Below are positions 7,079-40,955 of a stretch of 64,000 nucleotides of DNA, in pieces. Numbering within the stretch: the first letter of the stretch is position 1; the number at the start of each line of letters is the position of its first letter. Origin of the DNA: an uncultured bacterium (GTDB taxonomy: Bacteria > Patescibacteriota > Minisyncoccia > Phycocordibacterales > GWA1-40-21). The stretch spans positions 15,398-79,397 of the forward strand of contig CAILDB010000003.1 of the NCBI GenBank assembly GCA_903832855.1, given 5' to 3'. Both the position numbers and the translations under genes were made by a program. The notes beneath the pieces were generated by a model. It searched no databases. It was not told where the DNA came from and saw only the letters and a program-made list of their open reading frames with translations.

Positions 7079-7084
7079 TTTCGA

Positions 7085-7814: not shown

Positions 7815-8522
7815 ATGAGTATTAAAAATTGGTTCTTAGGACATATTAAAAGAAAAGCAGAAGAAGAACCTGTTACTATTGCTGAACTCAAAAAAATTGT
7901 TGAAAAAAGGATGTCTATTACAAATGATGAATTCCAAAAAGGATACGAGCTCATAGAAAAATATCCTCGTTCTGTCAGCATTTTGGGTTCTGCAAGATTT
8001 AATGAGGACAACAAATATTATCAGGCGGCAAGGTCATTAGGTTATAGAATAGCCAAGGAGCTCAAATATGCTGTCGTGACAGGCGGAGGGCCTGGAATTA
8101 TGGAAGCAGCAAATAGAGGCGCGTATGAGGCAAGAGGCAAATCACTTGGCTTCACAATTAAACTTCCAAAGGAACAGAAAGTAAATAAATATGTGACAGA
8201 GTTTGTTGAATTTGAATATTTCTTTAGCAGAAAGACGATACTTTTCTTTTCCGCCGAATGCTATGTTTATTTTCCGGGAGGATTCGGGACATTGGATGAA
8301 TTACTTGAAATTGTGACTTTAATACAAACAAAAAAGATTCCCAGAACACCGGTTATTTTAGTCGGTAGAGAATTTTGGCAACCATTTATTGATTTAATGA
8401 AAACAAAACTTTTAGACGAAAATGAAACAATCAGTCCAGATGATATTAATATTTATCAAATAGTTGATTCCGAAGACGAAATATTAAAAATAATTAAAAA
8501 CGCTCCGTTTAGACAGGAATAA
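7815..8522 (+). CDS. LOG-family protein (TIGR00730 Rossmann-fold, cytokinin riboside 5'-monophosphate phosphoribohydrolase-like)
   Basis: 235 aa. GGGPGIMEA and PGGFGTLDEL motifs. Confidence 0.8.
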   Translation: MSIKNWFLGHIKRKAEEEPVTIAELKKIVEKRMSITNDEFQKGYELIEKYPRSVSILGSARFNEDNKYYQAARSLGYRIAKELKYAVVTGGGPGIMEAANRGAYEARGKSLGFTIKLPKEQKVNKYVTEFVEFEYFFSRKTILFFSAECYVYFPGGFGTLDELLEIVTLIQTKKIPRTPVILVGREFWQPFIDLMKTKLLDENETISPDDINIYQIVDSEDEILKIIKNAPFRQE

Positions 8523-8523
8523 C

Positions 8524-8683
8524 AAAGCAAAAAGGTTTTTGTAAAAAATAACCTCGTAGCAAAATGCTTTTGAATTGACTTGGGAGCGCGACGGCGCGAG
8601 CACGAGGAATTTTTTAGCAAAAAAATATCCGTGCAATTCAAAAGCTTTTTGTGGAGAGGTTTTTACAAAAACCTTTTTGCTTT
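8524..8683. repeat. Nested palindromic GC-rich repeat, family A core, filling the convergent intergenic gap
   Basis: The outer 24-bp perfect inverted repeat AAAGCAAAAAGGTTTTTGTAAAAA / TTTTTACAAAAACCTTTTTGCTTT encloses the core TTTTGAATTGACTTGGGAGCGCGACGGCGCGAGCACGAGGAATTTTTTAGCAAAAAAATATCCGTGCAATTCAAAAG. The same core is at 23349-23435 and 25838-25925. Confidence 0.55.
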
Positions 8684-8691
8684 CTTTTTCC

Positions 8692-9009
8692 TTATTTAAT
8701 AGAAGTAATCTCCACTTTAAAATATGGCTGTCTGTGTCCGTTCTTTTTAAAATATCTGCTTTTTTGTTTGTAGTGAATAACTGTAACTGTAGGAAGTTTA
8801 CCAATTTCTATGATTTTCCCCTCTACTTTTGCACCATCAATAAAAGGAGTTCCGATAGTAGTATCTTTGCCGTTATCCACAAGCAAAACCTTATCAAAAA
8901 CGACTTTATCGCCTTCTTTGAAGTCATCCCCGAGCTTTTCTATTTCCAAGAAATCGCCCTTTGACGCTTTGTATTGTTTTCCACCTGTTTTTATAACTGC
9001 AAATTCCAT
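8692..9009 (-). CDS. rplU: 50S ribosomal protein L21
   Basis: MEFAVIKTGGKQYKASKGDFLEIEKL... is a typical L21 N-terminus. The ORF-track start at 9045 adds 12 unlikely residues. Confidence 0.85.
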   Translation of the reverse strand: MEFAVIKTGGKQYKASKGDFLEIEKLGDDFKEGDKVVFDKVLLVDNGKDTTIGTPFIDGAKVEGKIIEIGKLPTVTVIHYKQKSRYFKKNGHRQPYFKVEITSIK

Positions 9010-11300: not shown

Positions 11301-11342
11301 TACTACTATTATAATTCATAATAAAAGAAAAGGCAAAATCAA

Positions 11343-11377
11343 AAAGCCCGCGAATGAGAATTCGCGGGCTTTTTGAT
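11343..11377. terminator. Bidirectional intrinsic terminator hairpin
   Basis: AAAAAGCCCGCGAATgagaATTCGCGGGCTTTTT. Confidence 0.55.
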
Positions 11378-11384
11378 TTCTGTC

Positions 11385-16978: not shown

Positions 16979-17008
16979 CCGAGTGCACCCGCGCTCGGCT
17001 TTTTTATT
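16979..17008 (+). terminator. Rho-independent terminator
   Basis: GCCGAGTGCAcccGCGCTCGGC followed by TTTTTTATT. Confidence 0.6.
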
Positions 17009-17123
17009 GCCGAAAATGATAAAAAATGTTATATTCTTTTAGCGAATGAGATGTTATGGCTAAAACAATTTTTATCTGATAAAAATTGTTCGCCCGAACA
17101 TTTTTGAAGCAAAAATGTTTTAG

Positions 17124-17195
17124 GGCTCTATCGTCTAACGGTTAGGACATAGCCTTCTCAAGGCTAGAATCGCGGTTCGATTCCGCGTAGAGTCA
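17124..17195 (+). tRNA. tRNA-Glu (anticodon CUC)
   Basis: Manual cloverleaf. Acceptor GGCTCTA/TAGAGTC, D-arm GTCT-AACGGTTA-GGAC, anticodon arm TAGCC-TTCTCAA-GGCTA (CTC), T-arm CGCGG-TTCGATT-CCGCG. No CCA encoded. Confidence 0.8.
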
Positions 17196-17363
17196 CAAAA
17201 ATTTGCGGAGCATAATTTTTGTGATTTTTAAACGCAAAAGTTTTTGCGTTTAAAAAGAATCGAAAGACGGAGGCCGACGGGCCGAGTCGGGGTCGCAAGA
17301 TTTTTCAGCAGAAAAATACTTGTGACCGAAAGCGTACTCGCGTTTCCGCGTAGAGTCACAAAT
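17181..17363. repeat. Direct duplication of the tRNA-Glu 3' end (TCCGCGTAGAGTCACAAA at 17181-17198 and 17345-17362) bracketing a ~150-bp GC-rich structured element (module B)
   Basis: The second copy lies 164 nt downstream of the first. The intervening GACGGAGGCCGACGGGCCGAGTCGGGGTCGCAAGATTTTTCAGCAGAAAAATACTTGTGACCGAAAG is homologous to 51130-51205 and 19290-19345. Confidence 0.5.
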
Positions 17364-17467
17364 TTAGTAACTCGTGACTACATAAATAGTTTCCATAATT
17401 TCTATTGCATTTTTTATATAAAAGAATAGTATTGAATTTAGAAGATCTTAAACACAGGAAGGATAAT

Positions 17468-17617
17468 ATGAAAAAGGTGAAGATTGTTTATCGTCTGAAG
17501 AGGTGGATAAGTGAGCCGTCAATTACTTCTTTTGGCTCAAACCAGTATTATCCAAGATGGGAGTCCGTCTTGAAAGATTTAGGATGCCTATTCACACTGG
17601 GTTTATACAAACCGTAA
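17468..17617 (+). CDS. Hypothetical 49-aa basic protein (first gene of a GC-rich two-gene cassette)
   Basis: AGGAAGG SD before the ATG at 17468. Protein is MKKVKIVYRLKRWISEPSITSFGSNQYYPRWESVLKDLGCLFTLGLYKP. The ORF-track version starts further upstream at 17405. Confidence 0.4.
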   Translation: MKKVKIVYRLKRWISEPSITSFGSNQYYPRWESVLKDLGCLFTLGLYKP

Positions 17618-17664
17618 CCGCTCTCACAGAGCGAAGAAACCCGACAAGAAAGGAAACCGTAATG

Positions 17665-17817
17665 ACAAAGCGTGATTACGCACGAAAGGCCGAACTTCTT
17701 GCCGAACTTGCTAGTCTTGAGATTAGGGATAGCGACGAGGGTAACTTCAACATAGCTGATGAGTATCTTGACAGAGCTAAGTCAGCTATCAAAAAAATGC
17801 GGGAAACGCACGAGTGA
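17665..17817 (+). CDS. Hypothetical 50-aa acidic helical protein (second gene of the cassette)
   Basis: AAAGGAAACCGTA-ATG. Protein is MTKRDYARKAELLAELASLEIRDSDEGNFNIADEYLDRAKSAIKKMRETHE, followed by a terminator. Confidence 0.4.
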   Translation, partial: TKRDYARKAELLAELASLEIRDSDEGNFNIADEYLDRAKSAIKKMRETHE

Positions 17818-17833
17818 GTATGAAAGTGAGTGC

Positions 17834-17865
17834 GAGCACATCAGCAATGGTGTGCTCTTTTTTTA
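17834..17865 (+). terminator. Rho-independent terminator
   Basis: GAGCACAtcagcaatggTGTGCTC followed by TTTTTTT. Confidence 0.6.
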
Positions 17866-17904
17866 TCTACTCTTTCCGCAAAAATTTTTGCCAGAACAAA
17901 AACT

Positions 17905-19206
17905 TTACCGGGCAAGCCACTCTTCTTCCTGCCTCACTAGGAGTTCCTCTGCTTTTTCCGGCTCAGCCATTATTTCTAAAACAAATTTTTCCATTCTCAT
18001 TGATTGGGAACCTTTTACCAAAATTAAATCGCCTTCTTTTATTTCATTTTGAAATTCTTTTCCTGCAGTCACGGAGTCATCATATTGGAAAATCTTTCCT
18101 TCATCAAGATTGGCATCAAGTGCACCTTCGGCCAATTTCTTTGACCTCATTCCCACGGTCAAAATCAAATCGCAAAATTCTCCGGCAATTTTTCCGGCAT
18201 TGTAATGTTCCTCAGAAGAAAGCTTCCCAAGTTCCATCATATCTCCAAGAACGGCTATTTTCCTACCTTTTGTTTTAATATCATTGAGAGTTTGCAATGC
18301 AGATGCAACGGCAAGTGGCGAAGAATTGTAAGTATCATCAATAATAGTTGAGCCCTTAATTCCTTTTATCAATTTCATTCTGCCTTTTGGCGTGTCATGC
18401 TCGGCAAACATTTCATTTATTTTTACAGGATTTATTTTATTTACAAAGCCGACAGCGACAGACGCGAGGATAGAATAAATATTTGGAATTCCAACAGAAC
18501 CACGAACAAACATTGGCAAACTATTTCCCTCATAATTTATTCTAAATGAAATACCCATAACTTTTTTATTACTCTCTCCATCCTCATACAAATAATCCAA
18601 ATTTTCTGCCTTTACATTTGCTGGATTATCAAAACCATATTTAATAATTTGACCAGAAAAATCTTTGCTCATCTCTACCGAGTCCTCATCATCGGCATTT
18701 ATTACCAGCGTTCCACCAGTTTTCAGCGCCCGAACAAGATACCATTTTTCATTTATCAAATCGTCTCTAGACTCAAAAAACTCAATATGCACCGGCACTT
18801 TTGCAAATTTTGTAATAACAACAATGTCCGGCTTAAGCCACTTAGTTATTTTTCTAATGTCCCCCGGCCTATCCGCACCCACTTCAAGCACAAGCCACTC
18901 TGGATATTTTTCTTTGAAAATAATAGACGAAAGTCCAACCAAGATATTTTTAATCCACATCAGAGGATTACTCCAAGCATTCTGACATCCGAGAATTGTC
19001 AGTGGAATTCCAATATCGCTATTAAAACTTTTTTCACTTTTTCGGACAAAAAAAGAGCCGGACATTGCAGTGTAAATAGCATCTTTGGTAGATGTCTTAC
19101 CCACACTTCCAGTCACAGCAACAATCTTTGGCTTGTATTTCCTCAAAACCATTCTTGCCTCAAGCTCCATCGTTTTTGAAATTATCTTCTTAAAAATGTC
19201 TTTCAT
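17905..19206 (-). CDS. murF: UDP-N-acetylmuramoyl-tripeptide--D-alanyl-D-alanine ligase
   Basis: 433 aa. VTGSVGKTSTKD P-loop and Mur ligase middle and C domains. Confidence 0.9.
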   Translation of the reverse strand: MKDIFKKIISKTMELEARMVLRKYKPKIVAVTGSVGKTSTKDAIYTAMSGSFFVRKSEKSFNSDIGIPLTILGCQNAWSNPLMWIKNILVGLSSIIFKEKYPEWLVLEVGADRPGDIRKITKWLKPDIVVITKFAKVPVHIEFFESRDDLINEKWYLVRALKTGGTLVINADDEDSVEMSKDFSGQIIKYGFDNPANVKAENLDYLYEDGESNKKVMGISFRINYEGNSLPMFVRGSVGIPNIYSILASVAVGFVNKINPVKINEMFAEHDTPKGRMKLIKGIKGSTIIDDTYNSSPLAVASALQTLNDIKTKGRKIAVLGDMMELGKLSSEEHYNAGKIAGEFCDLILTVGMRSKKLAEGALDANLDEGKIFQYDDSVTAGKEFQNEIKEGDLILVKGSQSMRMEKFVLEIMAEPEKAEELLVRQEEEWLAR

Positions 19207-19225
19207 AACCTAATATTACCACAAA

Positions 19226-19492
19226 AAATCTCGCAAGAAAAATTTGAAAATTTTGCTAGGGGTGGCGATCCTGTTCCTTTTGAAATACATTGCGCAGGCC
19301 GACTGGGCCGAGCATAACAAATTTTCAGCAGAATATTACTTCGACGAGCGAGGAGCAAGGTGGAAAATCTTATTTTACATCTTGTCCGAGCGAAGTCGAA
19401 GCAAGAAGATTCTTATCTTCTTATGTGCGTATTTCAAAAGGAATAGGTCGACAGGACCCCGTGAAATTTTCTAATTTTTCTTGCGAGATTTT
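19226..19492. repeat. Composite GC-rich nested-palindrome repeat (family A ends + module B + 7085-type module)
   Basis: Outer 31-bp inverted repeat AAAAATCTCGCAAGAAAAATTTGAAAATTTT / AAAATTTTCTAATTTTTCTTGCGAGATTTTT (one mismatch). Inner ends GCTAGGGGTGGCGATCCTGTTCCTTTTGAA ... AAAAGGAATAGGTCGACAGGACCCCGTGAAATTTT are shared with the 23333 and 25824 copies. Fills the ftsI-murF gap. Confidence 0.6.
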
Positions 19493-19495
19493 TAC

Positions 19496-21211
19496 CTACC
19501 TATCAGGTGCTATCTCATAATAATTTATTAAAAACTTTGCTGTGTCAATAAATGGCATCGTCAAAGTCTGAGAAGCATAATTTACATTTTTCGGCTCAAC
19601 TGTATAAAGTAAGACCAAAAATCTAGGATTGTAGGCAGGAAAATATCCAAAAAATGAGTGCAAATATCTATCAGGATAATATCCTCCACCTTCCGCTCCT
19701 GGCCTTGCTATCTGCGCTGTCCCCGTCTTTGCAGCAATACTGTAGCGATCCATTTTCACAGCTCCATTCAAAAGTGCCTTGTCCACGACTTCCACAAGCA
19801 TTCTGGTTATTTCATCTGCGGATGATTTCTTGATTACCTGCTGTGCTTCATTTACATATGAAATATTTTTTGCAGGAGCAAGTTCATAATTTATTTTTTT
19901 AACAACATGAGGAGTAATAAGTTTTCCACCATTTGCCAAAACTGAAAGTGCTCTTGCTGTAATTATCGGCGTCATAGAAATTCCCTGACCGAAGGATGCA
20001 TTATAAAATTCTACAGTAGTTTTTACTTTTAGATTTTCTATACTCCCCGCTGCTTCACTTGGCAAATCAATTCCCGTTTCCATTCCAATTCCAAATTTTT
20101 TGAAATATTCTGTAAATTTTTCATTACCCATCTGACTTTCTACAAATGAAGCTCCTGTATTTAATGAATTATTAAGAACTATTTGCATATTCACAACTCC
20201 TCTTCCCGCCCCATCATAATTTGAAACTTTATATCCATCAACCATAAGAAATCCCTTGTCATTATAAGTTGTTTTGGCTGTCACTACACCAGAATCAATT
20301 CCAGAAGCCATTGTGATTGCTTTTATAATAGAACCCATTTCATAGGCGTTACTCACCAAAGGGTTTCCCAAAACAGAAAAATCCGTAACACTTCCGTAAT
20401 CATTTGGATTAAAAGTAGGCGTCGTTGCCATCGCATAAATTTCTCCTGTTTTTGGATCAAGAATTACCCCACCTGTCGTTTTTGAACTCCATGTCTTACT
20501 CACCTCGGCGATTTTTGACTCAAGAAAGCTCTGAACTTCTGGTTCTATGGAAGTCACGATATCACCTTTCTTAGAATCAAATAAATTATTTTTAATATTT
20601 AAAAATATTTCAGCATAAGGGTTCACATACATTTTTGTGTCAGACCTTTCAAGCGTATCATTATAATATTTTTCAAGTCCGTATCTGCCTTCAAGCAAAT
20701 CGCCATTATATCCCACAAAGCCAACTACATTGGATGCTAGCTGTCCACCAGGATAAAACCTAGCCTTATCTGTTCCGATGAAAACACCAGGGATTTTCAT
20801 ATCAGCTATTGCCAGAGCGGACTTTTCCGGAACCTTTTTCATTATTTCTTCATACGGGTCGTTTACTTTCGTAGCTTTTTGTAAAAATGTTGTCTTATCA
20901 ATTTCTAGTATTGATGATATTTTTGTAAAGACTTCATCAGGATTTTTCATTAAAGATGGGTTGACAGATAGAGTGTATTCATTTTTCAAAGCTGCAGCAG
21001 AAATAACTGATCCATCTTTTGATGTAAAGAAAATAGTTCCTCTATCAAAAACACCATTTACATTTATTGTTTGTTTTTTTTCGGAAATAATATTAAATTC
21101 CTCCCCTTTTACTACCTGCAGAAAATATAATCTGACAAATAAAATAAAAGCAATAAGAATAACAAAACCAAATATAATTCTAACCCTAAAAACAAAGTGA
21201 CTAGATTTCAT
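19496..21211 (-). CDS. ftsI: Peptidoglycan D,D-transpeptidase FtsI (PBP3-like class B PBP)
   Basis: 571 aa. N-terminal TM, then SxxK (SIIK), SxN and KTGT motifs. Sits in the dcw position after ftsL. Confidence 0.85.
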   Translation of the reverse strand: MKSSHFVFRVRIIFGFVILIAFILFVRLYFLQVVKGEEFNIISEKKQTINVNGVFDRGTIFFTSKDGSVISAAALKNEYTLSVNPSLMKNPDEVFTKISSILEIDKTTFLQKATKVNDPYEEIMKKVPEKSALAIADMKIPGVFIGTDKARFYPGGQLASNVVGFVGYNGDLLEGRYGLEKYYNDTLERSDTKMYVNPYAEIFLNIKNNLFDSKKGDIVTSIEPEVQSFLESKIAEVSKTWSSKTTGGVILDPKTGEIYAMATTPTFNPNDYGSVTDFSVLGNPLVSNAYEMGSIIKAITMASGIDSGVVTAKTTYNDKGFLMVDGYKVSNYDGAGRGVVNMQIVLNNSLNTGASFVESQMGNEKFTEYFKKFGIGMETGIDLPSEAAGSIENLKVKTTVEFYNASFGQGISMTPIITARALSVLANGGKLITPHVVKKINYELAPAKNISYVNEAQQVIKKSSADEITRMLVEVVDKALLNGAVKMDRYSIAAKTGTAQIARPGAEGGGYYPDRYLHSFFGYFPAYNPRFLVLLYTVEPKNVNYASQTLTMPFIDTAKFLINYYEIAPDR

Positions 21212-21527
21212 TTGTATTCAAAGATAATGATTCACTATTACCTGCCTTTGATACAAAGATTTGTTTTGAATTGTCAATAAAGCCGTCGCCCTTGGCTGTT
21301 TCTAGTGTTATTGCATTTTTTGCCTGTAAATATTGATATTCTAGGCCATTTACCTCCAAAGTAAGAGATGCTGACTTATTTGCGAGCACGGTGTTTTCCC
21401 TGATACTCACTGTAATTTGAATAATTGAAAAGAAATATGATGCGACTAAAAGTCCACAAGAAACTGCCAAAATCCAAAAGATTTTTTTGCTCGGATTATT
21501 TATTTGTTCTTGTATTGCTTTAGTCAT
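21201..21527 (-). CDS. ftsL: Putative cell division protein FtsL (small bitopic protein)
   Basis: 108 aa with a single TM, between rsmH and ftsI. Assignment rests on synteny only. Confidence 0.45.
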   Translation of the reverse strand: MTKAIQEQINNPSKKIFWILAVSCGLLVASYFFSIIQITVSIRENTVLANKSASLTLEVNGLEYQYLQAKNAITLETAKGDGFIDNSKQIFVSKAGNSESLSLNTNEI

Positions 21528-22413
21528 TTTTTTTAAATATTCGCAGTTTAGCGCTTCTTGATCTTGGATTTTCCCTTAATTCATTTTCACTTGCCGTGAT
21601 TGGTTTTTTATTTATCGGTTTTCCTAAACCTTTTTCCTTCCATTCTCTAAAAGTATCTTTTACTATTCTATCTTCCGTACTATGAAATGAAATTATTGCT
21701 ATTCTTCCGCTGGGTGCTAGAAGGTCAATACTCTTTCTCAAACCTTCTTTCAGCGCCTCCACTTCATCATTTACCGCCATTCTGATTGCCTGAAATGTCT
21801 TTGTGGCGAAGTGTATTTTCCCTTTTTCGTAAGACACAGGAACTGCACTTTTAATTATCGCTACAAGCTCATCTGTCATTTCTATCGGTTTCTTTTCTCT
21901 TGCTTCAATTATTTTTCTTGCAATTCTTCTTGAATATTTTTCGTCAGAATATCCGTAAAATATATCTGCGAGTGTCTCCTCTCCCCAAGAATTTAAAATC
22001 ATCTTGGCTGTAATCTGATCTTCTCCGGCAGTGTTTGAGAATGTCATCAGAAGTGGTTCATTGTTTTTGAAAGTGAAACCTCTTCCCGATAAATCCAACT
22101 GGTCGGAACTAAGTCCGAGATCCAGAATTATTCCATTTACATTTTTCACACCTACCTTTTCGAGCACAGAATCAATTTTTCTGTAATCGGAGAGAAAAGC
22201 CTGAAAATCACAACCATCTTTACAAATTTTTGTCGTCGCTCTGTTTATTGCTTCACTATCTCTGTCTGTCGCAATTATTTTTATTTTTGAACCAAACCTT
22301 TTAAAAATTTCTTCGCTATGTCCCCCCGCACCGAGTGTCCCGTCAAAGACCACATTATTTGGCTTCAAATCAAGTCCGTTTATTGTCTCATCCAGTAAAA
22401 CCGCTTTGTGCAT
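21520..22413 (-). CDS. rsmH: 16S rRNA (cytosine1402-N4)-methyltransferase RsmH/MraW
   Basis: 297 aa. DGTLGAGGHS SAM motif. Confidence 0.9.
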   Translation of the reverse strand: MHKAVLLDETINGLDLKPNNVVFDGTLGAGGHSEEIFKRFGSKIKIIATDRDSEAINRATTKICKDGCDFQAFLSDYRKIDSVLEKVGVKNVNGIILDLGLSSDQLDLSGRGFTFKNNEPLLMTFSNTAGEDQITAKMILNSWGEETLADIFYGYSDEKYSRRIARKIIEAREKKPIEMTDELVAIIKSAVPVSYEKGKIHFATKTFQAIRMAVNDEVEALKEGLRKSIDLLAPSGRIAIISFHSTEDRIVKDTFREWKEKGLGKPINKKPITASENELRENPRSRSAKLRIFKKND

Positions 22414-22416
22414 ATT

Positions 22417-22851
22417 TTATAGTGCTCCTGCTTGACCAAGCTTTTCTGCAAGCTGATCTGCTTCTCTTGCGACCTTTTCTTTAACGCCACGCCATACTTC
22501 TTCGTTCCAAATTTCAACTCTGTCCTGAACTCCAACAACTGCAACTTTATTTAAAAGATTTGCTCTCTTGATTAAAAAATCCGGAAGTAACATTCTGCCG
22601 ATTGCGTCCACTTCAGCTTCCACCGCACCTCCAAACATATATCTATTGAAACTTCTATTGTCTGTTTGAAGCATTGAAGACTCTGAAAGTTTTCCTGAAA
22701 TATTTTTCCATTGAGAAAGTGTAAAGACAAAAAGACATCCATCAAGTCCAGGAGTGACGACAATTTTTTTGCCCAATTCTTTTCTAAATTTCACCGGAAG
22801 TGAAATTCTTTTTTTGTCATCTAGCGTATGTGTGTATTCTCCAATTAACAT
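22417..22851 (-). CDS. mraZ: Transcriptional regulator MraZ
   Basis: 144 aa. Two MraZ/SpoVT-AbrB repeats with DxxxR (LDDKKRISLP... and DAIGRMLLP). Confidence 0.9.
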   Translation of the reverse strand: MLIGEYTHTLDDKKRISLPVKFRKELGKKIVVTPGLDGCLFVFTLSQWKNISGKLSESSMLQTDNRSFNRYMFGGAVEAEVDAIGRMLLPDFLIKRANLLNKVAVVGVQDRVEIWNEEVWRGVKEKVAREADQLAEKLGQAGAL

Positions 22852-22878
22852 ATTAGTTTTTGTGAGATTTTTAATTTA

Positions 22879-22923
22879 CCACTTCATCCCACTTCTTATA
22901 CATTTTATAACACTTCATCCCAC
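22879..22923 (-). promoter_or_regulatory. Candidate MraZ operator: two direct repeats GTGGGATGAAGTG upstream of mraZ
   Basis: On the mraZ strand, GTGGGATGAAGTG occurs twice, 31 bp apart, flanking an A/T-rich putative -10. E. coli MraZ binds TGGGN direct repeats. Confidence 0.3.
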
Positions 22924-23065
22924 AGTGCAACACAAAGTTATCCACAGGGTACCTTGCCCTGTTTTATGTGTCAGATTTGGTGTTATTGACTAAAAAAATA
23001 TTAAGTATAATATACCTATCGGATGTTAAATGACCGTTAATTGACTAAACAAAAAGAGGCGAGAA

Positions 23066-23224
23066 ATGATAGCTAACCCTGTACCTGTTGAAACGATACC
23101 TATGTGGTGGCTTATAGGACGGTGGATCATGTTGATCGTTGTTCTTTTCGCACTAGCAATTGTAGCCTGCTTTATCTACTGCATGCGCAAATTCGAGAAG
23201 GAAAAGGAACAAGGCAAATCATGA
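23066..23224 (+). CDS. Hypothetical 52-aa single-TM protein (below the ORF-track length cutoff)
   Basis: ATG at 23066. Protein is MIANPVPVETIPMWWLIGRWIMLIVVLFALAIVACFIYCMRKFEKEKEQGKS. Terminator downstream. G+C higher than flanks. Confidence 0.4.
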   Translation: MIANPVPVETIPMWWLIGRWIMLIVVLFALAIVACFIYCMRKFEKEKEQGKS

Positions 23225-23254
23225 GATGAAATCACAATCAAACAAGACAGTAGT

Positions 23255-23292
23255 CCTCGTTCGGAATTTCCGAGCGAGGGCTTTTTTTATCA
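23255..23292 (+). terminator. Rho-independent terminator
   Basis: CCTCGTTCGGaatttCCGAGCGAGG followed by GCTTTTTTTAT. Confidence 0.55.
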
Positions 23293-23303
23293 AGATACGG
23301 ATG

Positions 23304-23481
23304 ACACAAAATTAAGAGACTGAAAATTTTGTTAGGGGTGGCGATCCTGTTCCTTTTGAACTGACTTGGGAGGCTGACTGAGCCGAGCACGAGGAATTTT
23401 TTAGCAAAAAAATATCCGTGCAGTTCAAAAGGAATAGGTCGACAGGACCCCGTGAAATTTTCAGTCTTTTAATTTTGTGTC
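23304..23481. repeat. Composite nested-palindrome repeat, family A
   Basis: Outer inverted repeat ACACAAAATTAAGAGACTGAAAATTTT / AAAATTTTCAGTCTTTTAATTTTGTGT. Inner sequence GTTAGGGGTGGCGATCCTGTTCCTTTTGAACTGACTTGGGAGGCTGACTGAGCCGAGCACGAGGAATTTTTTAGCAAAAAAATATCCGTGCAGTTCAAAAGGAATAGGTCGACAGGACCCCGTGAAATTTT. Confidence 0.6.
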
Positions 23482-24943
23482 AATTTTTAGGAGGTCTAAG
23501 AAGTGGAAAAATCTGACATTCTTTTGCTGGTTTGTTCATCAAGAAACTAAACAATCTTTCAGAAAGCCCGAAGCCACAAGTTGGTGGCATTCCATATTCC
23601 ATTGCTTCCACAAATTCCCCATCCGTCATCTGCGCCTCCTCATCACCCTCTTCTAAAAGTTTTGCCTGTTCCATAAATCTATCCATCTGATCTATCGGAT
23701 CATTAAGCTCACTAAATCCCTTACCCATTTCAGAACCAGCAAGAATCACCTGAAATCTTTCTACTAAATTTGTATCCTTTTCCATTCTCTTTGCAAGTGG
23801 TTCCATCATCACAGGAACATTTATAAGAAATCCCGGACCTGCGATTTGCTTTCTGCAATATTTCCACAAATTATCTACTGCTCTATTCAAATTAAAACCT
23901 TTTTTATTATCATACTCCACTTTCAATTCCCTAAGTTTTTTTTCAATTTCAGGAAGTTTTGCAGAAGTAACATCCACATCGGTCATTTTTTTAATTATTT
24001 CTACATAATCATAAATTTCCCATTCTTTTTCAAAATCAATTTCAAAATCTTTTATTTTAAACTTCATCGTGCCAAATGTTTCCATCGCAACTCTTCTGTA
24101 AAGTTCTTTTATCAATTCCATTCCCTGATTGTAGTCCGCATACGCCCAGTAAAATTCCATCATTGAATAATCCTGCAAATGTTCGGCATCCATTCCTTCG
24201 TTTCGAAAATTTCTACCAATTTCAAAAACTTTTGGAAAACCAGCAATCATAAGACGCTTGAGCCAAAGCTCAGGAGAAATTCTCAAATAAATATCTAGGT
24301 CAAGTGCATTATGATGTGTGATAAAAGGTCTCGCCTCTGCACCTCCCGGAACAGATTCTAAAATAGGCGTCTCAACTTCCATAAAACTTTTTTCTACCAG
24401 AAAACTTCTGATAGACGCCCAGAATTTTTCTCTTTTTATTATAATCTCTTTTACATCCTCATTAAAAAGAATATCTAAATATCTTTTGCGGAGTTTTTCT
24501 TCTTCATCTTGAAGCCCGTGCCATTTTTCAGGAAGTGGTCGCAAACTTTTTGAAAGCATTTTCCAAGAAGTTACCTGCAATGTTTTCTCGCCTCTTTTGG
24601 TAGTAAAAAGTGTTCCTCCAACCTCTATAAAATCGCCAATATCAATGACTTTTTGGAAAAAATCAAATGTTTCAGCTCCTATATCATCTTTCTTGATAAG
24701 CCCTTGAAACTTGGCCGTGCCATCGTAAATATTAAAAAATACCAAAGCTCCCTGCTCGCGAAGTGACATTAGTCTCCCGGTAAGATGAATATCTTTATTT
24801 TCTAAAAGTGAATCGTATTTTTCTATAACCTCGTTCAATGAAAAATCCCTTCTGGATGATGATGGGTAAGGATTTACTCCAGCATCTCTTAAGATTTTTA
24901 ATTTCTCTATTCTATTATTTCTTATTTCTACTAATGAACTCAT
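23480..24943 (-). CDS. lysS: Lysyl-tRNA synthetase (class II)
   Basis: 487 aa. N-terminal OB anticodon-binding fold and class II motifs 1-3. Confidence 0.95.
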   Translation of the reverse strand: MSSLVEIRNNRIEKLKILRDAGVNPYPSSSRRDFSLNEVIEKYDSLLENKDIHLTGRLMSLREQGALVFFNIYDGTAKFQGLIKKDDIGAETFDFFQKVIDIGDFIEVGGTLFTTKRGEKTLQVTSWKMLSKSLRPLPEKWHGLQDEEEKLRKRYLDILFNEDVKEIIIKREKFWASIRSFLVEKSFMEVETPILESVPGGAEARPFITHHNALDLDIYLRISPELWLKRLMIAGFPKVFEIGRNFRNEGMDAEHLQDYSMMEFYWAYADYNQGMELIKELYRRVAMETFGTMKFKIKDFEIDFEKEWEIYDYVEIIKKMTDVDVTSAKLPEIEKKLRELKVEYDNKKGFNLNRAVDNLWKYCRKQIAGPGFLINVPVMMEPLAKRMEKDTNLVERFQVILAGSEMGKGFSELNDPIDQMDRFMEQAKLLEEGDEEAQMTDGEFVEAMEYGMPPTCGFGLSERLFSFLMNKPAKECQIFPLLRPPKN

Positions 24944-24952
24944 TTTTGTGGA

Positions 24953-25423
24953 TTATTTGATATCCATAATTTTATATTCCATCATACCAGATGGGCAAGT
25001 ATATTTAAAAGAATCGTGTTTGTTTTTCCCGAGGATTGCAGCGCCAAGTGGTGACCTGTTTGAAATTTTCCCTTTTGCCATATCGGCTTCTTCCGAGCCA
25101 ACTATTTGAAAAACCTTTTTTGTTCCGCATCCAGCTTTTTCCAAAGTCACAGTGCTACCTATCATCACATGATCACCGTGTCTGTCTTCAAAAACCGATG
25201 CATTTTTCAAAATTATTTCAAGTTTTGAAATCCTATCCTCAGTATTTGCCTGATTTTCTCTAGCTTCATGATATTCGGCGTTTTCGGACAGGTCGCCAAG
25301 ACCCCTAGCATAATCCAAACTCTCCGCGACCTCCTTTCTCTTATTCGTCTTTAAATCCTTCAGCTCCTCCACGAGTGCATCATACTTCTCCTTTGTTAAA
25401 TATTCTCTTTTTTCATCAGGCAT
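24953..25423 (-). CDS. greA: Transcription elongation factor GreA
   Basis: 156 aa. N-terminal coiled coil (DLSENAEYHEARE) and FKBP-like C-terminal domain. Confidence 0.9.
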   Translation of the reverse strand: MPDEKREYLTKEKYDALVEELKDLKTNKRKEVAESLDYARGLGDLSENAEYHEARENQANTEDRISKLEIILKNASVFEDRHGDHVMIGSTVTLEKAGCGTKKVFQIVGSEEADMAKGKISNRSPLGAAILGKNKHDSFKYTCPSGMMEYKIMDIK

Positions 25424-25554
25424 AATATTATTGGTTAATTATTAAAGTGCCACCATTCTACCAAACTATGGGTTGATAGTCAAAATTTTGCATAAAAAAA
25501 ACGACCCGAACCCCATTACAGGATCCAGGTCGTAGATCGTGTTGTCGGCGAGAA

Positions 25555-25698
25555 TTACTTCGCCTGCCAGCAGATCGTTCCCGAGTTCTTCATACAGAAT
25601 TCTGTCATCTTGTAGCTCTGAGGGTCTGAAACCAAGTGCCACACGATGACTGTGAGAAGAATCGCAGAAACCGACATACAAATAATCAACCTTTTCAT
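25555..25698 (-). CDS. Candidate 47-aa hydrophobic peptide with perfect AGGAGG SD (alternative: overlapping 93-aa ORF 25466..25747)
   Basis: AGGAGG lies 7 nt before the ATG at 25698. Protein is MKRLIICMSVSAILLTVIVWHLVSDPQSYKMTEFCMKNSGTICWQAK. It overlaps, in another frame, the 93-aa ORF listed in the track. The region is GC-rich. Confidence 0.35.
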   Translation of the reverse strand: MKRLIICMSVSAILLTVIVWHLVSDPQSYKMTEFCMKNSGTICWQAK

Positions 25699-25805
25699 CT
25701 TCAATCCTCCTAACTACTAGTATACACCCTTTCGTATCTTTTGTCAAGCATTTTTACATTTTCTTTTTATAAGTCCAAAAATAGCTTGCAAAATAAGGCT
25801 TTTTG

Positions 25806-25958
25806 CCAAAAATTTTGTTAGGGGTGGCGATCCTGTTCCTTTTGAACTGACTTGGGAGCGCGACTGGCGCGAGCACGAGGAATTTTTTAGCAAAAAAATA
25901 TCCGTGCAGTTCAAAAGGAATAGGTCGACAGGACCCCGTGAAATTTTTCGGCTGAAAA
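25806..25958. repeat. Composite nested-palindrome repeat, family A
   Basis: GTTAGGGGTGGCGATCCTGTTCCTTTTGAACTGACTTGGGAGCGCGACTGGCGCGAGCACGAGGAATTTTTTAGCAAAAAAATATCCGTGCAGTTCAAAAGGAATAGGTCGACAGGACCCCGTGAAATTTTT, about 95% identical to the 23333 copy, with short flanking inverted repeats. Confidence 0.6.
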
Positions 25959-25960
25959 TA

Positions 25961-27646
25961 TTATTTAAAATACTCCGGTGTATTTGTTCCCATCCAATCA
26001 AGAAGTCCACGCATTATATACACACCTCCCATAGTATTTGTGACTGGACCTTTTTCCATTATCACAGCAAAAGCGTATTTTGGATTGTCATAAGGGAAAA
26101 AACCGGTGACCCAGGAATTTACAAATTGTTTGTAAACACCAAGCTCGGCAGTTCCTGTCTTTGCAGCGACTTTTACATCAGGAGTATTGAGCCCGACGGC
26201 TACCCCATCCGTCACACCAAGTCGCATTCCCTCTTTTACAACTTTATAATAACCTGAATCAAAATTTAATTTTTCTGATTTTGAAATCTGTGTTGTATCA
26301 CCGAGAAGAATTGTCGGTGCAAGAAGTGTGCCTTCGTTTGCAATACTTGCTACAGCTCTCACTGCCTGAATAGGACTAACCTGAAAACCGTATTGCCCGA
26401 TGGATGTATGATATGTGTCACCAATCCTCCAATCTTCCCCATTAAAATTCGCTTTTTTCCATTCGGGAGTTGGAATTGTTCCGGAAACATTATTAAAAAA
26501 GTCACCGGGAACATCTCGTCCAAAACCAAACATTGTCATATATTTATCTATATTTGCAATTCCTAAACCCTTTTGACCCTCATATCCTCCACCAACTTCA
26601 TAAAAATAAACATCAGAAGATACGGCTAGAGCGTGTCGCATATCCACATAACCTTGCGCTTTCCAATCTTTGAAAATTGTAGGATGAGCTGGATCATAGG
26701 GATTTGCGATTGAAATATATGCGGTACCCAAAATATTTGTAAGCGGGTCAATCACTTTTTCACTCTGTGCTGCCATCGCCATATATGGCTTTACGATAGA
26801 ACCCGGAGTATAAAGCCCGCCGGTAACCCTATCCAAAAAAGGTTTGTTTTTATCTTTTAAATATTTATTCACAGCACTACTGTTTCCGTCGGTCATAGAT
26901 TGCGAATCGTATTCAGGATAACTTGCTGATGCAAGAATTTCTCCAGTATGTATGTCCATTATTACACCTGCTCCACCAGAAAATCCGACTTGTCGAGAAA
27001 GTGCGGAAATTAAATTATAAAATTCGCTTTGAACTCTAGAATCAATGGAAAGTTTTAAATCTTTCCCGTCTACCTCTGAGCGTACGACACTTTCTGTCTG
27101 CACTTTACCGAGAGCGTTTATTTCAACTATTCTTACACCGTTTTGCCCAGAAAGTGCCTGATCGTAGACCTTTTCAACGCCATCTTTACCGACAAAAACA
27201 TCACTATAATAGAAACCGTATTTATCTTTTGAGGGATATTTTAAATATCCGACTGTGTGAGCAAGTCCTGAAATGTTTGCATATGTTCTATCCGGAAATT
27301 CTAGATTATTTTTATTTTCTGTATTCCACGCGAGATTAATATCATTCCTATCAGAGATAACTCCTCTTTTTGCAAAAATAAGAGTGTTTCGCATTATATT
27401 ATTTTCGCTTCTTTGAAAATATGCGAGGCCGTTTACGATTTGTAAATTAAAAACACGAAAAAGAAATAGGACAAAAATTATAACAAAAAATATGGATAAA
27501 AAAATAATTGTTCTGACAGATATTGCCTTCTCTATCCTACCCTCAAACTGATGAACATTAAAATTCGGCAGATTACTGGAATCCAAAGAAATCTCATCCG
27601 GATCAATGTCTTTGATCCTATCTTTATAAAAATTGTTTTTTGCCAT
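25961..27646 (-). CDS. mrdA: Peptidoglycan D,D-transpeptidase MrdA (PBP2)
   Basis: 561 aa. N-terminal TM, SxxK (SIVK), SxD/N and KTGTAE motifs. Follows mreBCD. Confidence 0.9.
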   Translation of the reverse strand: MAKNNFYKDRIKDIDPDEISLDSSNLPNFNVHQFEGRIEKAISVRTIIFLSIFFVIIFVLFLFRVFNLQIVNGLAYFQRSENNIMRNTLIFAKRGVISDRNDINLAWNTENKNNLEFPDRTYANISGLAHTVGYLKYPSKDKYGFYYSDVFVGKDGVEKVYDQALSGQNGVRIVEINALGKVQTESVVRSEVDGKDLKLSIDSRVQSEFYNLISALSRQVGFSGGAGVIMDIHTGEILASASYPEYDSQSMTDGNSSAVNKYLKDKNKPFLDRVTGGLYTPGSIVKPYMAMAAQSEKVIDPLTNILGTAYISIANPYDPAHPTIFKDWKAQGYVDMRHALAVSSDVYFYEVGGGYEGQKGLGIANIDKYMTMFGFGRDVPGDFFNNVSGTIPTPEWKKANFNGEDWRIGDTYHTSIGQYGFQVSPIQAVRAVASIANEGTLLAPTILLGDTTQISKSEKLNFDSGYYKVVKEGMRLGVTDGVAVGLNTPDVKVAAKTGTAELGVYKQFVNSWVTGFFPYDNPKYAFAVIMEKGPVTNTMGGVYIMRGLLDWMGTNTPEYFK

Positions 27647-35183: not shown

Positions 35184-35250
35184 AAGAACACTCCTTTCTT
35201 TTCTCCTAAAAAATACTAGCACAATCAAGTCATAGCAACAAGCGAATGAG

Positions 35251-35410: not shown

Positions 35411-35421
35411 CGAATGAGCCT

Positions 35422-40866: not shown

Positions 40867-40870
40867 GCTA

Positions 40871-40920: not shown

Positions 40921-40955
40921 TGCAAAAATTTTGCTAAATAAAATAAACGAGCCAG

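What the first reader, a model, noticed from the sequence alone, without database searches (positions are those of the whole stretch)
19226..19492. Modular GC-rich nested-palindrome repeats (family A/B), each enclosed by its own copy-specific outer inverted repeat
Copies at 8524-8683, 19226-19492, 23304-23481 and 25806-25958 share a core (TTTTGAACTGACTTGGGAGCGCGAC.GGCGCGAGCACGAGGAATTTTTTAGCAAAAAAATATCCGTGCAGTTCAAAAG) and/or the ends (GTTAGGGGTGGCGATCCTGTTCC ... GGAATAGGTCGACAGGACCCCGTGAAATTTT). Each copy is wrapped in a long outer inverted repeat whose sequence is unique to that locus. Examples are AAAAATCTCGCAAGAAAAATT at 19226, ACACAAAATTAAGAGACTGAAAATTTT at 23304 and AAAGCAAAAAGGTTTTTGTAAAAA at 8524. 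The 19226 copy also carries module B (also at the two tRNAs) and a 7085-type module. One explanation is an element that inserts into the loops of pre-existing terminator hairpins. Another is a structured RNA whose closing stem co-varies. The elements fill convergent or tandem gene junctions in the dcw and mre clusters, where they may act as terminators or attenuators.
Basis: seen in the sequence. Interest (0 to 1): 0.55.

Follow-up and report, generated by a model that had tools for sequence, protein, structure and literature searches.

The report
Hairpin-capping structured repeat of Patescibacteria
The GC-rich repeats are copies of a small three-armed folded element, absent from Rfam 15 and the searchable literature, that occurs many times per genome across the ultra-small Patescibacteria, either at the tip of long locus-specific hairpins at gene ends or beside tRNA genes, and that seems to spread by insertion.

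Summary
The window holds six copies of one core, all on the + strand. The fourth (25806) is weak at 73%.

The core is not lineage-specific. An exact-pattern scan found at least 119 loci, and all but two chance hits are in Patescibacteria. It is a roughly 65-80 nt three-way junction with very strong covariation and a conserved G.U pair, and it has no Rfam match.

There are two classes. Class A sits on a 17-49 bp locus-specific helix at protein-gene ends, in either orientation. Class B lies beside tRNA genes on the same strand (42:2), often followed by a 12-23 nt direct copy of the tRNA 3' end.

Relatives at about 80% and 60% protein identity lack the element at the orthologous sites. One relative has a plain hairpin at ftsI-murF. 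The same X+C composite sits at a different locus in that relative's genome.

Best reading: a modular, non-autonomous, insertional structured element that lands in or builds hairpin apices, nesting like Russian dolls. Some copies, especially tRNA-linked ones, are conserved as RNA. The mobilising machinery and the molecular function are unknown.

The parts
19224..19244 (+). Outer locus-specific inverted repeat, left arm (AAAAATCTCGCAAGAAAAATT). It lies 18 nt upstream of the start codon of the Mur ligase gene (here called murF; its first base is 19206, minus strand).
   Evidence: The homologous plain hairpin arm in relative L002 is shown.
19473..19493 (+). Outer inverted repeat, right arm (AATTTTTCTTGCGAGATTTTT). 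It begins 3 nt from the ftsI stop codon (19496-19498, minus strand).
19247..19277 (+). E module, 5' half (AAAATTTTGCTAGGGGTGGCGATCCTGTTCC). It is a lineage-specific extension of the closing helix.
   Evidence: (D6). It is found only in this species and close relatives.
19440..19470 (+). E module, 3' half (GGAATAGGTCGACAGGACCCCGTGAAATTTT).
   Evidence: (D3)
19278..19439 (+). X-type three-way-junction core carrying a nested insert. P1 is 19278-19288 / 19429-19439. The short arm hp1 is 19297-19309. The apical part of the long arm hp2 is 19319-19338.
   Evidence: Model R1 hit at 19278-19348 (26 bits, E 2.4e-5). Uninterrupted 76-77 nt X cores occur in L157, L174 and L187.
19340..19400 (+). Module C nested in the 3' strand of hp2. 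It is 92% identical to the free-standing copy at 7080-7141.
   Evidence: (D16). The same X+C composite sits at a different locus in relative L201.
19401..19424 (+). Small extra hairpin (AAGAAGAT/ATCTTCTT) that is part of the nested insert.
8524..8683 (+). Class A copy without E. The core is 8567-8644. There are two layers of locus-specific stem (8524-8547 / 8660-8683 and 8548-8566 / 8645-8659). It lies between the convergent LOG-family gene and rplU.
23302..23482 (+). Class A copy with E. The core is 23352-23432. The outer arms are 23302-23322 / 23462-23482, and the right arm includes the lysS stop codon.
25791..25966 (+). Class A copy with E. The core is 25838-25918. The outer inverted repeat is weak (73%). 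It lies downstream of the PBP2 gene.
17253..17362 (+). Class B copy (core 17253-17337), located 57 nt after tRNA-Glu(ctc) (17124-17196). It is followed by a 19-nt direct repeat of the tRNA 3' end (17344-17362, matching 17181-17199).
   Evidence: 93.8 bits
51126..51222 (+). Class B copy (core 51126-51210) after tRNA-Trp (51026-51097). The 5' flank GGAGGAATCGAA (51127-51138) is the exact inverted copy of the tRNA T-loop and T-stem. The 3' flank (51205-51222) is a diverged direct copy of the tRNA 3' end (51082-51099).
   Evidence: D19; 86.3 bits
7080..7141 (+). Free-standing copy of module C, directly after a terminator-like hairpin.

Best explanation
The 19226-19492 feature is one copy of a Patescibacteria-wide, multi-copy, modular structured element. 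Its invariant heart is a roughly 65-80 nt three-way junction with three parts:
- a closing helix P1;
- a short arm, made of a 3-bp P2, a GGA/GA internal loop, and a 4-bp stem with a GAC(N)G loop;
- a long arm, made of a GC-rich base, an A/UA asymmetric loop, four invariant U-A pairs, a C-G or U-A closing pair, and an AGCA tetraloop.

The element is non-autonomous and insertional. New copies appear at the apex of hairpin-forming sequences: long AT-rich hairpins at gene 3' ends for class A, and the T-loop region of tRNA genes for class B.

When a copy moves it carries part of its former stem. Copies therefore accumulate concentric layers: core, then a lineage-specific layer such as E, then the present locus's own hairpin. 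Other small hairpin modules (C) can in turn insert into it.

After insertion the arms are kept paired, by compensatory change or by arm-to-arm template switching.

The strand that carries GGAG...GAC...GAG is the one that must fold. This is probably an RNA, because tRNA-linked copies lie inside tRNA transcription units and evolve under structure-preserving selection.

At ftsI-murF the result is a 270-nt branched rod followed by a U-run on the dcw mRNA strand. Whatever the core itself does, this structure should act as an intercistronic terminator or attenuator, or as a double-strand-specific RNase site.

**Shown:** family membership, structure, covariation, insertion polymorphism, nesting, tRNA linkage and target duplication.

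**Inferred:** insertion into hairpin apices, carry-over of stems, an RNA intermediate or RNA function, and the effect on the operon.
For: **Family and structure**
- At least 119 loci match the pattern, and all but two chance hits are Patescibacteria MAGs. Only 2 hits occur in 2.9 million viral contigs.
- No Rfam family matches.
- Class B: 97.1% of cells are paired, against 78% when shuffled and 37-51% when slid. Sixteen of 23 pairs show compensatory changes. The pair at columns 45-73 is G.U in 58 of 76 sequences and G-C in 1.
- Class A: hp1 is 99% paired and hp2 98% paired, both with covariation.
- For the class A closing stems, the sense strand folds better in 34 loci against 9. The same holds for the window copies.

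**Multi-copy**
- Six copies in 64 kb.
- 140 model hits in 709 kb of loci.

**Insertional**
- The syntenic loci L002, L003, L004 and L126 have zero copies. Their spacers are short: ftsI-murF is 70, 22, 22 and 52 nt against 290 nt in the window.
- tRNA-Glu(ctc) in L126 has no class B copy.

**Hairpin targets**
- L002 has a plain hairpin followed by T6 at ftsI-murF.
- The LOG-rplU junction holds a long hairpin with a different apical module in each of the window, L200 and L201.
- The window itself has plain perfect palindromes.

**Mobility of composites**
- E+core sits at three window loci and four metagenome loci, each with different flanks.
- X+C is at ftsI-murF in the window but at LOG-rplU in the genome of L002/L201.
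- Uninterrupted X cores exist.

**tRNA linkage**
- Same strand in 42 cases against 2 on the opposite strand.
- Direct repeats of the tRNA 3' end, 12-23 nt long, in 13 of 69 copies. Class A has none.

**Selection in place**
- The orthologous tRNA-Lys-B loci L043 and L045 have flanks 72.5% identical. Their cores are about 88% identical, and the differences almost all preserve the structure.

**Orientation**
- Class A orientation relative to neighbouring genes is close to random, as expected for insertions.
Against: - No transposase, integrase or reverse transcriptase is encoded in the window or seen next to copies, so the mobilising activity is unknown.
- Class A copies have no target-site duplication.
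- No empty hairpin with exactly the window's arms was found in metagenomes.
- Three of four relatives have no hairpin at ftsI-murF. The L002 hairpin could therefore be a remnant left after loss of the core.
- At tRNAs the 5' arm is an inverted copy of the target. This argues that arms can be generated on insertion rather than pre-exist.
- In one subfamily (L008, L012, L118, L120) the outermost 9-11 bp of the stem (TTACGAAA / TTTCGTAA; GAATTACGAAA / TTTCGTAATTC in L012 and L118) are shared between non-orthologous loci, while the middle of the stem is variable. This needs an extra assumption, namely a common target palindrome.
- The deep sequence conservation of the core, and the retention of tRNA-linked copies at orthologous positions, fit a host function at least as well as selfish spread.
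- My sample is biased towards intact copies, because it was retrieved with an exact motif.
Confidence: 0.5

Rival explanations
1. A fixed family of functional small RNA genes, not a mobile element. The three-way-junction core is the active RNA, and it is released in two ways. Class B copies are released from tRNA operon transcripts by the tRNA-processing enzymes RNase P and RNase Z. Class A copies are released by RNase III cutting in the long perfect stem. The stems are processing signals that co-vary, and new copies arise by ordinary duplication.
For: - Covariation is very strong and a G.U pair is conserved.
- Class B lies on the tRNA strand in 42 cases against 2.
- Many class B copies sit 27-30 nt after one tRNA and about 50-60 nt before the next.
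- Orthologous copies evolve by structure-preserving changes while their flanks diverge.
- Class A stems are 17-49 bp, long enough for RNase III.
- Paralogues in one genome differ by compensatory and wobble changes (L039/L080 and L088).
Against: - About half of class A copies point against both neighbouring genes (19 antisense tandem contexts against 13 sense). No promoter is evident.
- Nearly identical E+core composites carry unrelated outer stems in one genome.
- Presence/absence polymorphism is seen between close relatives.
- The X+C composite is at different loci in two relatives.
- Nested modules exist.
- Direct duplications of tRNA 3' ends of variable length are insertion signatures.
- Tens of copies per roughly 1-Mb genome is unusual for an RNA gene.
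Confidence: 0.25
2. A DNA-level repeat of the REP/REPIN or MITE kind. The folded form is single-stranded DNA that a trans-acting enzyme encoded elsewhere in the genome recognises, for example a HUH/Y1 transposase or a recombinase. RNA plays no part.
For: - The element is multi-copy, extragenic and palindromic, and it sits at gene ends.
- One strand must fold, as with IS200/IS605-type and REP elements.
- All six window copies are on one strand.
- There is a mild bias of class A towards the C-rich (lagging) strand: 27 against 13.
- The stems are perfect, which suggests DNA-level copying between arms.
Against: - No such enzyme gene lies in the window or next to copies.
- The arms are not conserved, unlike REP or MITE ends.
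- G.U (G.T) pairs are frequent, and one is conserved.
- Co-orientation with tRNA genes, and position inside tRNA operons, fit RNA better.
- The core sequence is conserved across a whole superphylum, whereas REP families are species-specific.
- Copies within one contig are not always co-oriented.
Confidence: 0.15
3. Ordinary intrinsic terminators, partly bidirectional, whose loops happen to hold GC-rich sequence. The repeats are convergent terminator designs.
For: - Copies lie directly after stop codons at tandem and convergent junctions.
- The 19226 arms have an A-run before and a T-run after, as does the L002 hairpin.
- A strong promoter follows the 25806 copy on the gene strand.
Against: - There is no T enrichment after class A hairpins across 49 loci (T 0.27, A 0.37).
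- Conserved unpaired nucleotides and a covarying three-way junction are not terminator features.
- The copies at tRNAs come after a separate terminator-like hairpin.
- Relatives use ordinary GC-rich terminators at the same places.
Confidence: 0.05

Closest known systems
REP / BIME and REPIN elements of proteobacteria, with their RAYT transposases (own knowledge; review PMC3184786 found)
   Same: They are multi-copy, extragenic and hairpin-forming. They sit at gene 3' ends and convergent junctions. One strand is the active folded strand. They can stabilise or terminate transcripts.
   Different: REP arms are the conserved part and are species-specific. Here the arms are unique to each locus and the apical core is conserved across a superphylum. 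The core is a three-way junction, not a simple hairpin. No GTAG-type 5' motif and no RAYT gene was seen.
Insertion sequences that target palindromic repeats, for example IS1397/ISKpn1 inserting into the loops of REP/BIME palindromes (own knowledge, not tested here)
   Same: A mobile sequence ends up at the apex of a pre-existing palindrome, so it is flanked by an inverted repeat that is not its own.
   Different: Those are kilobase insertion sequences that encode a transposase, and their targets are one repeat family. Here the insert is 65-270 nt, non-coding, and the flanking palindromes differ at each locus.
Modular small repeats: BOX elements of Streptococcus pneumoniae, Correia elements of Neisseria, enterobacterial RU/ERIC (own knowledge; PMC2229807 found)
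   Same: They have a modular build with combinable boxes, an extragenic location, a strong predicted RNA structure, and effects on neighbouring gene expression.
   Different: Their modules are arranged linearly with conserved terminal repeats. Here the modules are concentric (nested palindromes), and the outermost layer is not conserved.
Hairpin-forming selfish repeats of organelle genomes: yeast mitochondrial GC clusters (own knowledge), sponge repetitive hairpin-forming elements (PMC2800124), Volvox palindromic repeats (PMC2670323)
   Same: They are GC-rich palindromic modules that invade AT-rich spacers of small genomes. They nest within each other and have no encoded mobility protein.
   Different: Those families are species-specific and show no deeply conserved, covarying core. 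They also have no linkage to tRNA 3' ends with target duplication.
Integrative elements that target the 3' part of tRNA genes (own knowledge)
   Same: Class B copies are flanked by the intact tRNA on one side and a displaced direct copy of its 3' end, from the T-loop onwards, on the other. In L025 a 6.9-kb defence island lies between two copies of such a composite.
   Different: The 'island' here is usually only about 100-230 nt and encodes nothing. No integrase was found. The repeat length varies (12-23 nt). An inverted copy of the same tRNA segment is also present.
Intervening sequences (IVS) in 23S rRNA helices (own knowledge)
   Same: They are sporadically distributed extended stem-loops that replace the tip of an existing hairpin and are removed by RNase III.
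   Different: IVS lie inside rRNA, are not conserved in sequence across phyla, and are not multi-copy outside rRNA operons.

Membership tests
Any Rfam 15 family, including the self-cleaving ribozyme families curated in Rfam, Y RNA, tRNA-like RNAs and riboswitches | A covariance-model match at or near the family's gathering score. | tested here: not met
   At the gathering threshold the window yields only three tRNAs. The E-value scan of 17000-26100 gives only chance-level microRNA-type hairpin hits over the copies (E about 1-2, 19-23 bits against thresholds of 50-211).
Intrinsic (Rho-independent) terminator | A GC-rich stem of about 5-15 bp with a short loop, followed directly by a U-tract. 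| tested here: not met
   No T enrichment in the 10 nt after 49 class A hairpins. Stems are 17-49 bp and enclose a core of about 62 nt. The 19226 copy alone has A- and T-runs at its base, so a terminator-like effect at that locus is not excluded.
REP / REPIN (RAYT-mobilised) | A conserved palindromic arm sequence shared by all copies in a genome. | tested here: not met
   The outer arms are unrelated between the loci compared, in the window and in L157 and L186.
REP / REPIN (RAYT-mobilised) | A RAYT (Y1 HUH transposase) gene in the genome, typically flanked by REPs. | tested here: inconclusive
   None among the Pfam-scanned genes of the 64-kb window. The rest of the genome was not available.
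MITE | Conserved terminal inverted repeats plus a fixed-length target-site duplication. | tested here: not met
   The window copies have no conserved termini. Class A has no flanking direct repeat beyond chance. Class B repeats vary from 12 to 23 nt. One subfamily (L008, L012, L118, L120) does share the outermost part of its stem.
tRNA-targeting integrative element | A direct repeat of the tRNA 3' end flanking the insert, with the intact tRNA at one side. | tested here: met
   19-nt repeat at tRNA-Glu and about 18 nt at tRNA-Trp in the window. Repeats of 12-23 nt in 13 of 69 class B loci.
tRNA-targeting integrative element | An integrase (tyrosine or serine recombinase) encoded within or next to the insert. 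| tested here: not met
   The inserts are about 100-230 nt and non-coding. No recombinase is in the window. None is in the 6.9-kb L025 island.
Conserved structured RNA motif (general criterion) | Base pairs supported by compensatory changes well above shuffled and slid controls. | tested here: met
   Class B covariation score is 0.555, against 0.179 shuffled and 0.05-0.11 slid, with 0 of 500 shuffles reaching it. Class A scores 0.473 against 0.157.
Conserved structured RNA motif (general criterion) | Evidence that the element is transcribed in the sense orientation. | not testable with these tools
   Only indirect evidence exists: class B is on the tRNA strand in 42 cases against 2 and often lies between two same-strand tRNAs. 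Class A orientation is random relative to its neighbours.

The most novel reading that the evidence does not exclude
The three-way-junction core is a new class of small RNA, possibly catalytic or the RNA part of a conserved ribonucleoprotein, universal to Patescibacteria. It is produced by two routes: tRNA-operon punctuation, and cutting of long perfect stems. It also propagates as DNA copies that enter hairpin loops, including tRNA T-loops, with target duplication and palindrome building. That would make it a bacterial counterpart of the RNA-gene-derived repeats (SINE-like) of eukaryotes, with a new insertion mechanism.
Probability: 0.22. Interest if true: 0.88.

Novelty: new variant of a known kind. 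Interest (0 to 1): 0.68.

Why it matters
Patescibacteria make up a large share of bacterial diversity. They have tiny genomes with little room for non-coding DNA, and almost nothing is known about their RNA biology.

This element is present in tens of copies per genome and is conserved in sequence and fold across the whole group. It is tied to tRNA genes and gene ends, and it is absent from Rfam. It is therefore either an important unrecognised RNA or a very successful genomic parasite of minimal genomes.

The concentric layering gives a readable record of successive insertions. The tRNA-linked copies, with their direct and inverted copies of the target, point to an insertion mechanism that is not explained by known transposases or integrases.

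In practical terms, these 100-270 nt hairpins break operons such as dcw and mre, and they create assembly and annotation artefacts (spurious ORFs over the repeats).

Tried and rejected
- **Known RNA family:** rejected.
- **Phage origin:** rejected. Only 2 hits in the viral collection.
- **Group I intron or tRNA intron:** considered because of the recent Patescibacteria paper (PMC13011429). Rejected because those introns sit at position 35/36 of the anticodon loop and are much larger, whereas here the tRNA upstream is intact.
- **A third, direct copy of the arm for class A (a switch-like 1:2 / 2:3 design):** not found.
- **Terminator U-tract:** not found in general.
- **Own promoter in front of the window copies:** nothing convincing.
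- **Empty hairpin allele with the window's exact arms in metagenomes:** 0 hits.
- **Strict co-orientation of copies, or a link to replication direction:** only a weak trend (27 against 13), and mixed orientations occur within contigs.
- **Orthology of the four loci that share outermost stem sequence (L008, L012, L118, L120):** rejected, because their flanking proteins are unrelated.
- **Integrase in the L025 island:** not found.
- **Literature:** six searches for any description of such an element in Patescibacteria or the candidate phyla radiation found nothing. Two 2026 preprints on intergenic features do not mention it.
- **E 5' end as a scan pattern:** 67 of 72 metagenome hits were chance matches in high-GC DNA. 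Four carried the E 3' end as well, and one further low-GC hit lacked it.
- **K-turn, anticodon-loop mimicry and loop-loop kissing:** considered by eye for the core. None fits the conserved nucleotides.
Full report
**1. The observation**

- Direct-repeat search and blastn show the A core at 8567-8644, 23352-23432 and 25838-25918, at 92-96% identity.
- The two halves of an 'ends' module (called E here) flank the centre at 19257/19440, 23330/23431 and 25816/25917.
- Three of the four copies have a long outer inverted repeat whose sequence is unique to the locus: 30 nt at 97%, 33 nt at 94% and 28 nt at 96%. The fourth (25806) reaches only 73%.
- The whole structures fold far better than shuffles, with z-scores of -11 to -14.
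- The + strand folds 13-21 kcal/mol better than its complement, because of G.U pairs.

A covariance model built later finds six copies in the window, all on the + strand. Two are next to tRNA-Glu and tRNA-Trp (17253 and 51126). Three are A copies. The sixth is the centre of the 19226 copy, at 26 bits.

That centre is a variant core (X) interrupted by a nested insert. The insert comprises module C (19340-19400, 92% identical to the free-standing copy at 7080-7141) plus a small hairpin. Uninterrupted 76-77 nt X cores between E ends exist in metagenome contigs L157, L174 and L187.

**2. Organism and gene context**

The window encodes housekeeping genes. These include mraZ-mraW-ftsL-ftsI and the adjacent Mur ligase gene (here called murF), mreB-mreC-PBP2, greA, lysS, rplU, leuS, gyrA and topA. 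No transposase, integrase or reverse transcriptase is present.

FtsI homologues carry names from Minisyncoccia and Paceibacterota MAGs, so this is a Patescibacteria (candidate phyla radiation) genome of about 37% G+C.

The copies fill the spacers exactly:
- The 19226 hairpin runs from 3 nt after the ftsI stop to 18 nt before the murF start.
- The 23304 hairpin includes the lysS stop codon.
- The 8524 hairpin spans from the last codons of the LOG-family gene to the rplU stop.

**3. The core is a superphylum-wide structured element**

The A, B and X copies share GGAG-NNN-GAC(N)G-N'N'N'-CGAG, followed by a hairpin with the apex TTTTYAGCARAA. A pattern of these features matches 5 times in the window against 0 expected.

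All but two chance hits are Patescibacteria MAGs. Their record titles name Paceibacterota, Nomura-, Kaiser-, Uhr-, Wildermuth-, Yonath-, Niyogi- and Taylorbacteria, and many are labelled Saccharibacteria. The viral collection holds only two matches. Rfam 15 has no matching family, and six literature searches found no description.

The hits fall into two classes.

*Class B (76 sequences)* fits a three-way junction.
- 97.1% of pair cells are standard pairs, against 78% after shuffling and 37-51% when partners are slid.
- 16 of 23 pairs show changes on both sides.
- The covariation score is 0.555 against 0.179.
- Four U-A pairs and the AGCA loop never vary.
- One pair is G.U in 58 of 76 sequences, A-U in 13 and G-C in only 1.

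*Class A (49 sequences)* has the same short arm (99% paired) and the same upper long arm (98% paired), both with covariation.

The model finds 140 matches in 709 kb of retrieved loci. Together with the six copies in this window, that suggests tens of copies per roughly 1-Mb genome.

**4. The two architectures**

*Class A* sits on a closing helix with a median of 28 bp and a range of 17-49 bp. Control positions give 11 bp.
- The helix sequence differs at almost every locus.
- The sense strand folds better in 34 loci against 9.
- Orientation relative to neighbouring genes is nearly random: 19 antisense tandem, 13 sense tandem, 9 convergent and 4 divergent.
- No T-tract follows the hairpin.
- No extra direct repeat flanks it.

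*Class B* has only a short closing helix (median 12 bp) and lies next to tRNA genes.
- The nearest tRNA within 200 nt is on the same strand in 42 cases and on the opposite strand in 2.
- That tRNA is upstream in 32 cases.
- Many copies sit 27-30 nt after one tRNA and about 50-60 nt before the next.
- In 13 of 69 copies the core is followed by a 12-23 nt direct copy of the tRNA 3' end, starting in the T-loop.
- The 5' flank of the core is an inverted, less perfect copy of the same segment.
- In the window, GGAGGAATCGAA (51127-51138) is the exact complement of the tRNA-Trp T-loop and T-stem. TTCCGCGTAGAGTCACAAA occurs both at the end of tRNA-Glu and after the core.

**5. Insertion polymorphism and empty sites**

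Contigs of relatives were fetched through FtsI and LOG homologues.

The syntenic loci L002 (80% FtsI identity), L003 and L004 (79%) and L126 (about 61%) contain no copy of the core. The same stretch of the window has four.

The ftsI-murF spacer is 290 nt in the window, 70 nt in L002, 22 nt in L003 and L004, and 52 nt in L126.
- L002 carries a plain hairpin there: AAAAATCTTCAAaAAAAA / TTTTTcTTGAAGATTTTT, with a 20-nt AT-rich loop, followed by T6. It is homologous in position and partly in sequence to the window's outer arms, AAAAATCTCGCAAGAAAAATT / AATTTTTCTTGCGAGATTTTT.
- The other three relatives have no hairpin.

After lysS, L002 and L003 have ordinary GC-rich terminators. The PBP2-greA spacer of L002 is short (69 nt) and holds no element.

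tRNA-Glu(ctc) in L126 has no class B copy.

The convergent LOG-rplU junction is especially telling:
- The window has an A core in a two-layer hairpin.
- L200 has a hairpin of about 27 bp capped by a different small GC-rich hairpin.
- L201 is from the same MAG as L002. It has an X core with the nested C module and an E 3' fragment, close in sequence to the interior of the window's ftsI-murF copy and wrapped in other inverted repeats.

So the X+C composite occupies different loci in two related genomes.

A scan for an empty hairpin with exactly the window's arms found nothing. The window itself contains plain 20-21 bp perfect palindromes without a GC core.

**6. How the stems evolve**

Paralogous and closely related copies differ in their stems by changes on both arms, or through G.U intermediates on the sense strand. 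Examples are L039/L080 in one genome, L089/L100, and the copies in L088.

The orthologous tRNA-Lys-B loci L043 and L045 have flanks only 72.5% identical. Their cores are about 88% identical, and almost all the differences preserve the structure.

By contrast, E+core composites that are 90-100% identical carry unrelated outer stems.

In one subfamily (L008, L012, L118, L120) the outermost 9-11 bp of the stem are shared between loci whose flanking genes are unrelated, while the middle of the stem differs.

The picture is one of concentric layers of different age.

**7. Interpretation**

The data fit a modular, non-autonomous element whose conserved three-way junction must fold in one strand. New copies appear at hairpin apices: gene-end hairpins for class A and tRNA T-loops for class B. 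Each copy takes along part of its former stem and is sometimes invaded by other small hairpin modules.

Whether the outer arms always pre-exist is open. The L002 hairpin and the LOG-rplU series say they can. The tRNA-linked copies say they can also be made from the target.

The conserved G.U pair, the tRNA-strand bias, the position inside tRNA operons and the structure-preserving evolution at orthologous sites favour an RNA role for at least the tRNA-linked copies. The random orientation of class A, the polymorphism and the nesting favour selfish insertion for the gene-end copies.

No mobilising protein was identified.

For the dcw operon, the practical consequence is a 270-nt branched rod followed by UUUUUU on the mRNA strand between ftsI and murF. 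This is a likely attenuator or a site for double-strand-specific RNase cleavage. That remains an inference.

**8. Comparison and novelty**

The element resembles REP/REPIN, BOX and Correia-type repeats and organelle hairpin elements in habit. It resembles tRNA-targeting islands in the duplicated tRNA end.

It fails the defining features of each:
- It has no conserved arms.
- It has no fixed target duplication.
- It has no associated transposase or integrase.

It also differs from all of them in having a deeply conserved, covarying core under locus-specific stems.

I rate it a new variant of a known kind, namely bacterial interspersed structured repeats. There is a real chance that the core is a new RNA class.

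Noticed in passing
window 35237-35411 and 40942-41115 (outer inverted repeat 40913-40943 / 41124-41154): A second, unrelated GC-rich repeat family (D, 83-95% identical). The copy at 40905-41160 folds into a branched rod (-125.8 kcal/mol, z -14) and has its own 31-nt AT-rich outer inverted repeat. It follows the same 'GC core in a locus-specific stem' design. It was not found in any other fetched locus.
   Followed up: partly
window 7731-7752/7779-7800, 32645-32666/32697-32718 and 60226-60247; weaker at 38494/38611 and 53677/53793: A 22-nt motif, ACCCCGTAGTAGAATTTGCCAT. It has 5 copies with at most 3 mismatches against 0 expected. They occur mostly as facing inverted pairs in intergenic spacers. 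It may be a promoter or operator motif.
   Followed up: partly
L025 288-7801: A 6.9-kb defence island (GmrSD/HNH-like, EcoRI-like methylase, AbiEii/AbiEi toxin-antitoxin, protease). It lies next to tRNA-Asn between two 274-nt, 97% identical direct repeats. Each repeat consists of the last 10 nt of the tRNA, a terminator hairpin and a composite class B element. No integrase was detected.
   Followed up: partly
window 17370-17378 and L025 668-690: Downstream of the duplicated tRNA end lies a short sequence (TTAGTAACTCGTGAC[C]). It resembles the 3' end of a class B long arm and is shared between two distant genomes. It may be a remnant of an older copy, which would mean successive insertions at the same tRNA. 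A second shared motif, GYGTACTCRCG, occurs in the window (17333-17343), L030 and L025.
   Followed up: no
L200 1347-1435: At the LOG-rplU junction of a relative at 79% identity there is a hairpin of about 27 bp (one mismatch). Only its basal AAAAAGG / CCTTTTT is shared with the window's hairpin. Its apex is a different small GC-rich hairpin (GUCUGG...CCGGAC), possibly a further minimal module family.
   Followed up: partly
L008, L012, L118 and L120 (class A loci): Four loci in different genomes, with unrelated flanking genes, share the outermost 9-11 bp of their stems (TTACGAAA / TTTCGTAA). The middle of the stem differs while staying almost perfectly paired, up to 45 bp. This is either a common target palindrome or conserved element ends around a hypervariable palindromic segment.
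   Followed up: partly
window 49716-49801: tRNA-Leu(caa) has no class B copy here, and the IPP-transferase (miaA-like) gene starts 8 nt later. Four other Patescibacteria (L026, L059, L072, L077) carry one after their tRNA-Leu(caa).
   Followed up: no
window 56253-56295, 11336-11379 and 33296-33341: Plain 20-22 bp palindromes with loops of 1-4 nt and A/T runs at their bases. The first two are perfect, and the third (33296-33341) is 86% complementary. They are bidirectional-terminator-like hairpins without any GC core, and they are possible unoccupied targets.
   Followed up: no
window 8484-8804 (-), 8575-8964 (+), 34998-35330 (-), 40621-41034 (-): Mechanical ORFs of 106-137 aa run across the repeat elements. 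They are likely to be spurious gene calls in automatic annotation.
   Followed up: no
window 23100-23260 (+) and 25550-25702 (-): Small ORFs lie next to two of the copies, each with its own terminator: a 52-aa hydrophobic peptide, and a peptide of about 50 aa behind a strong promoter. Both are absent or different in relatives.
   Followed up: no
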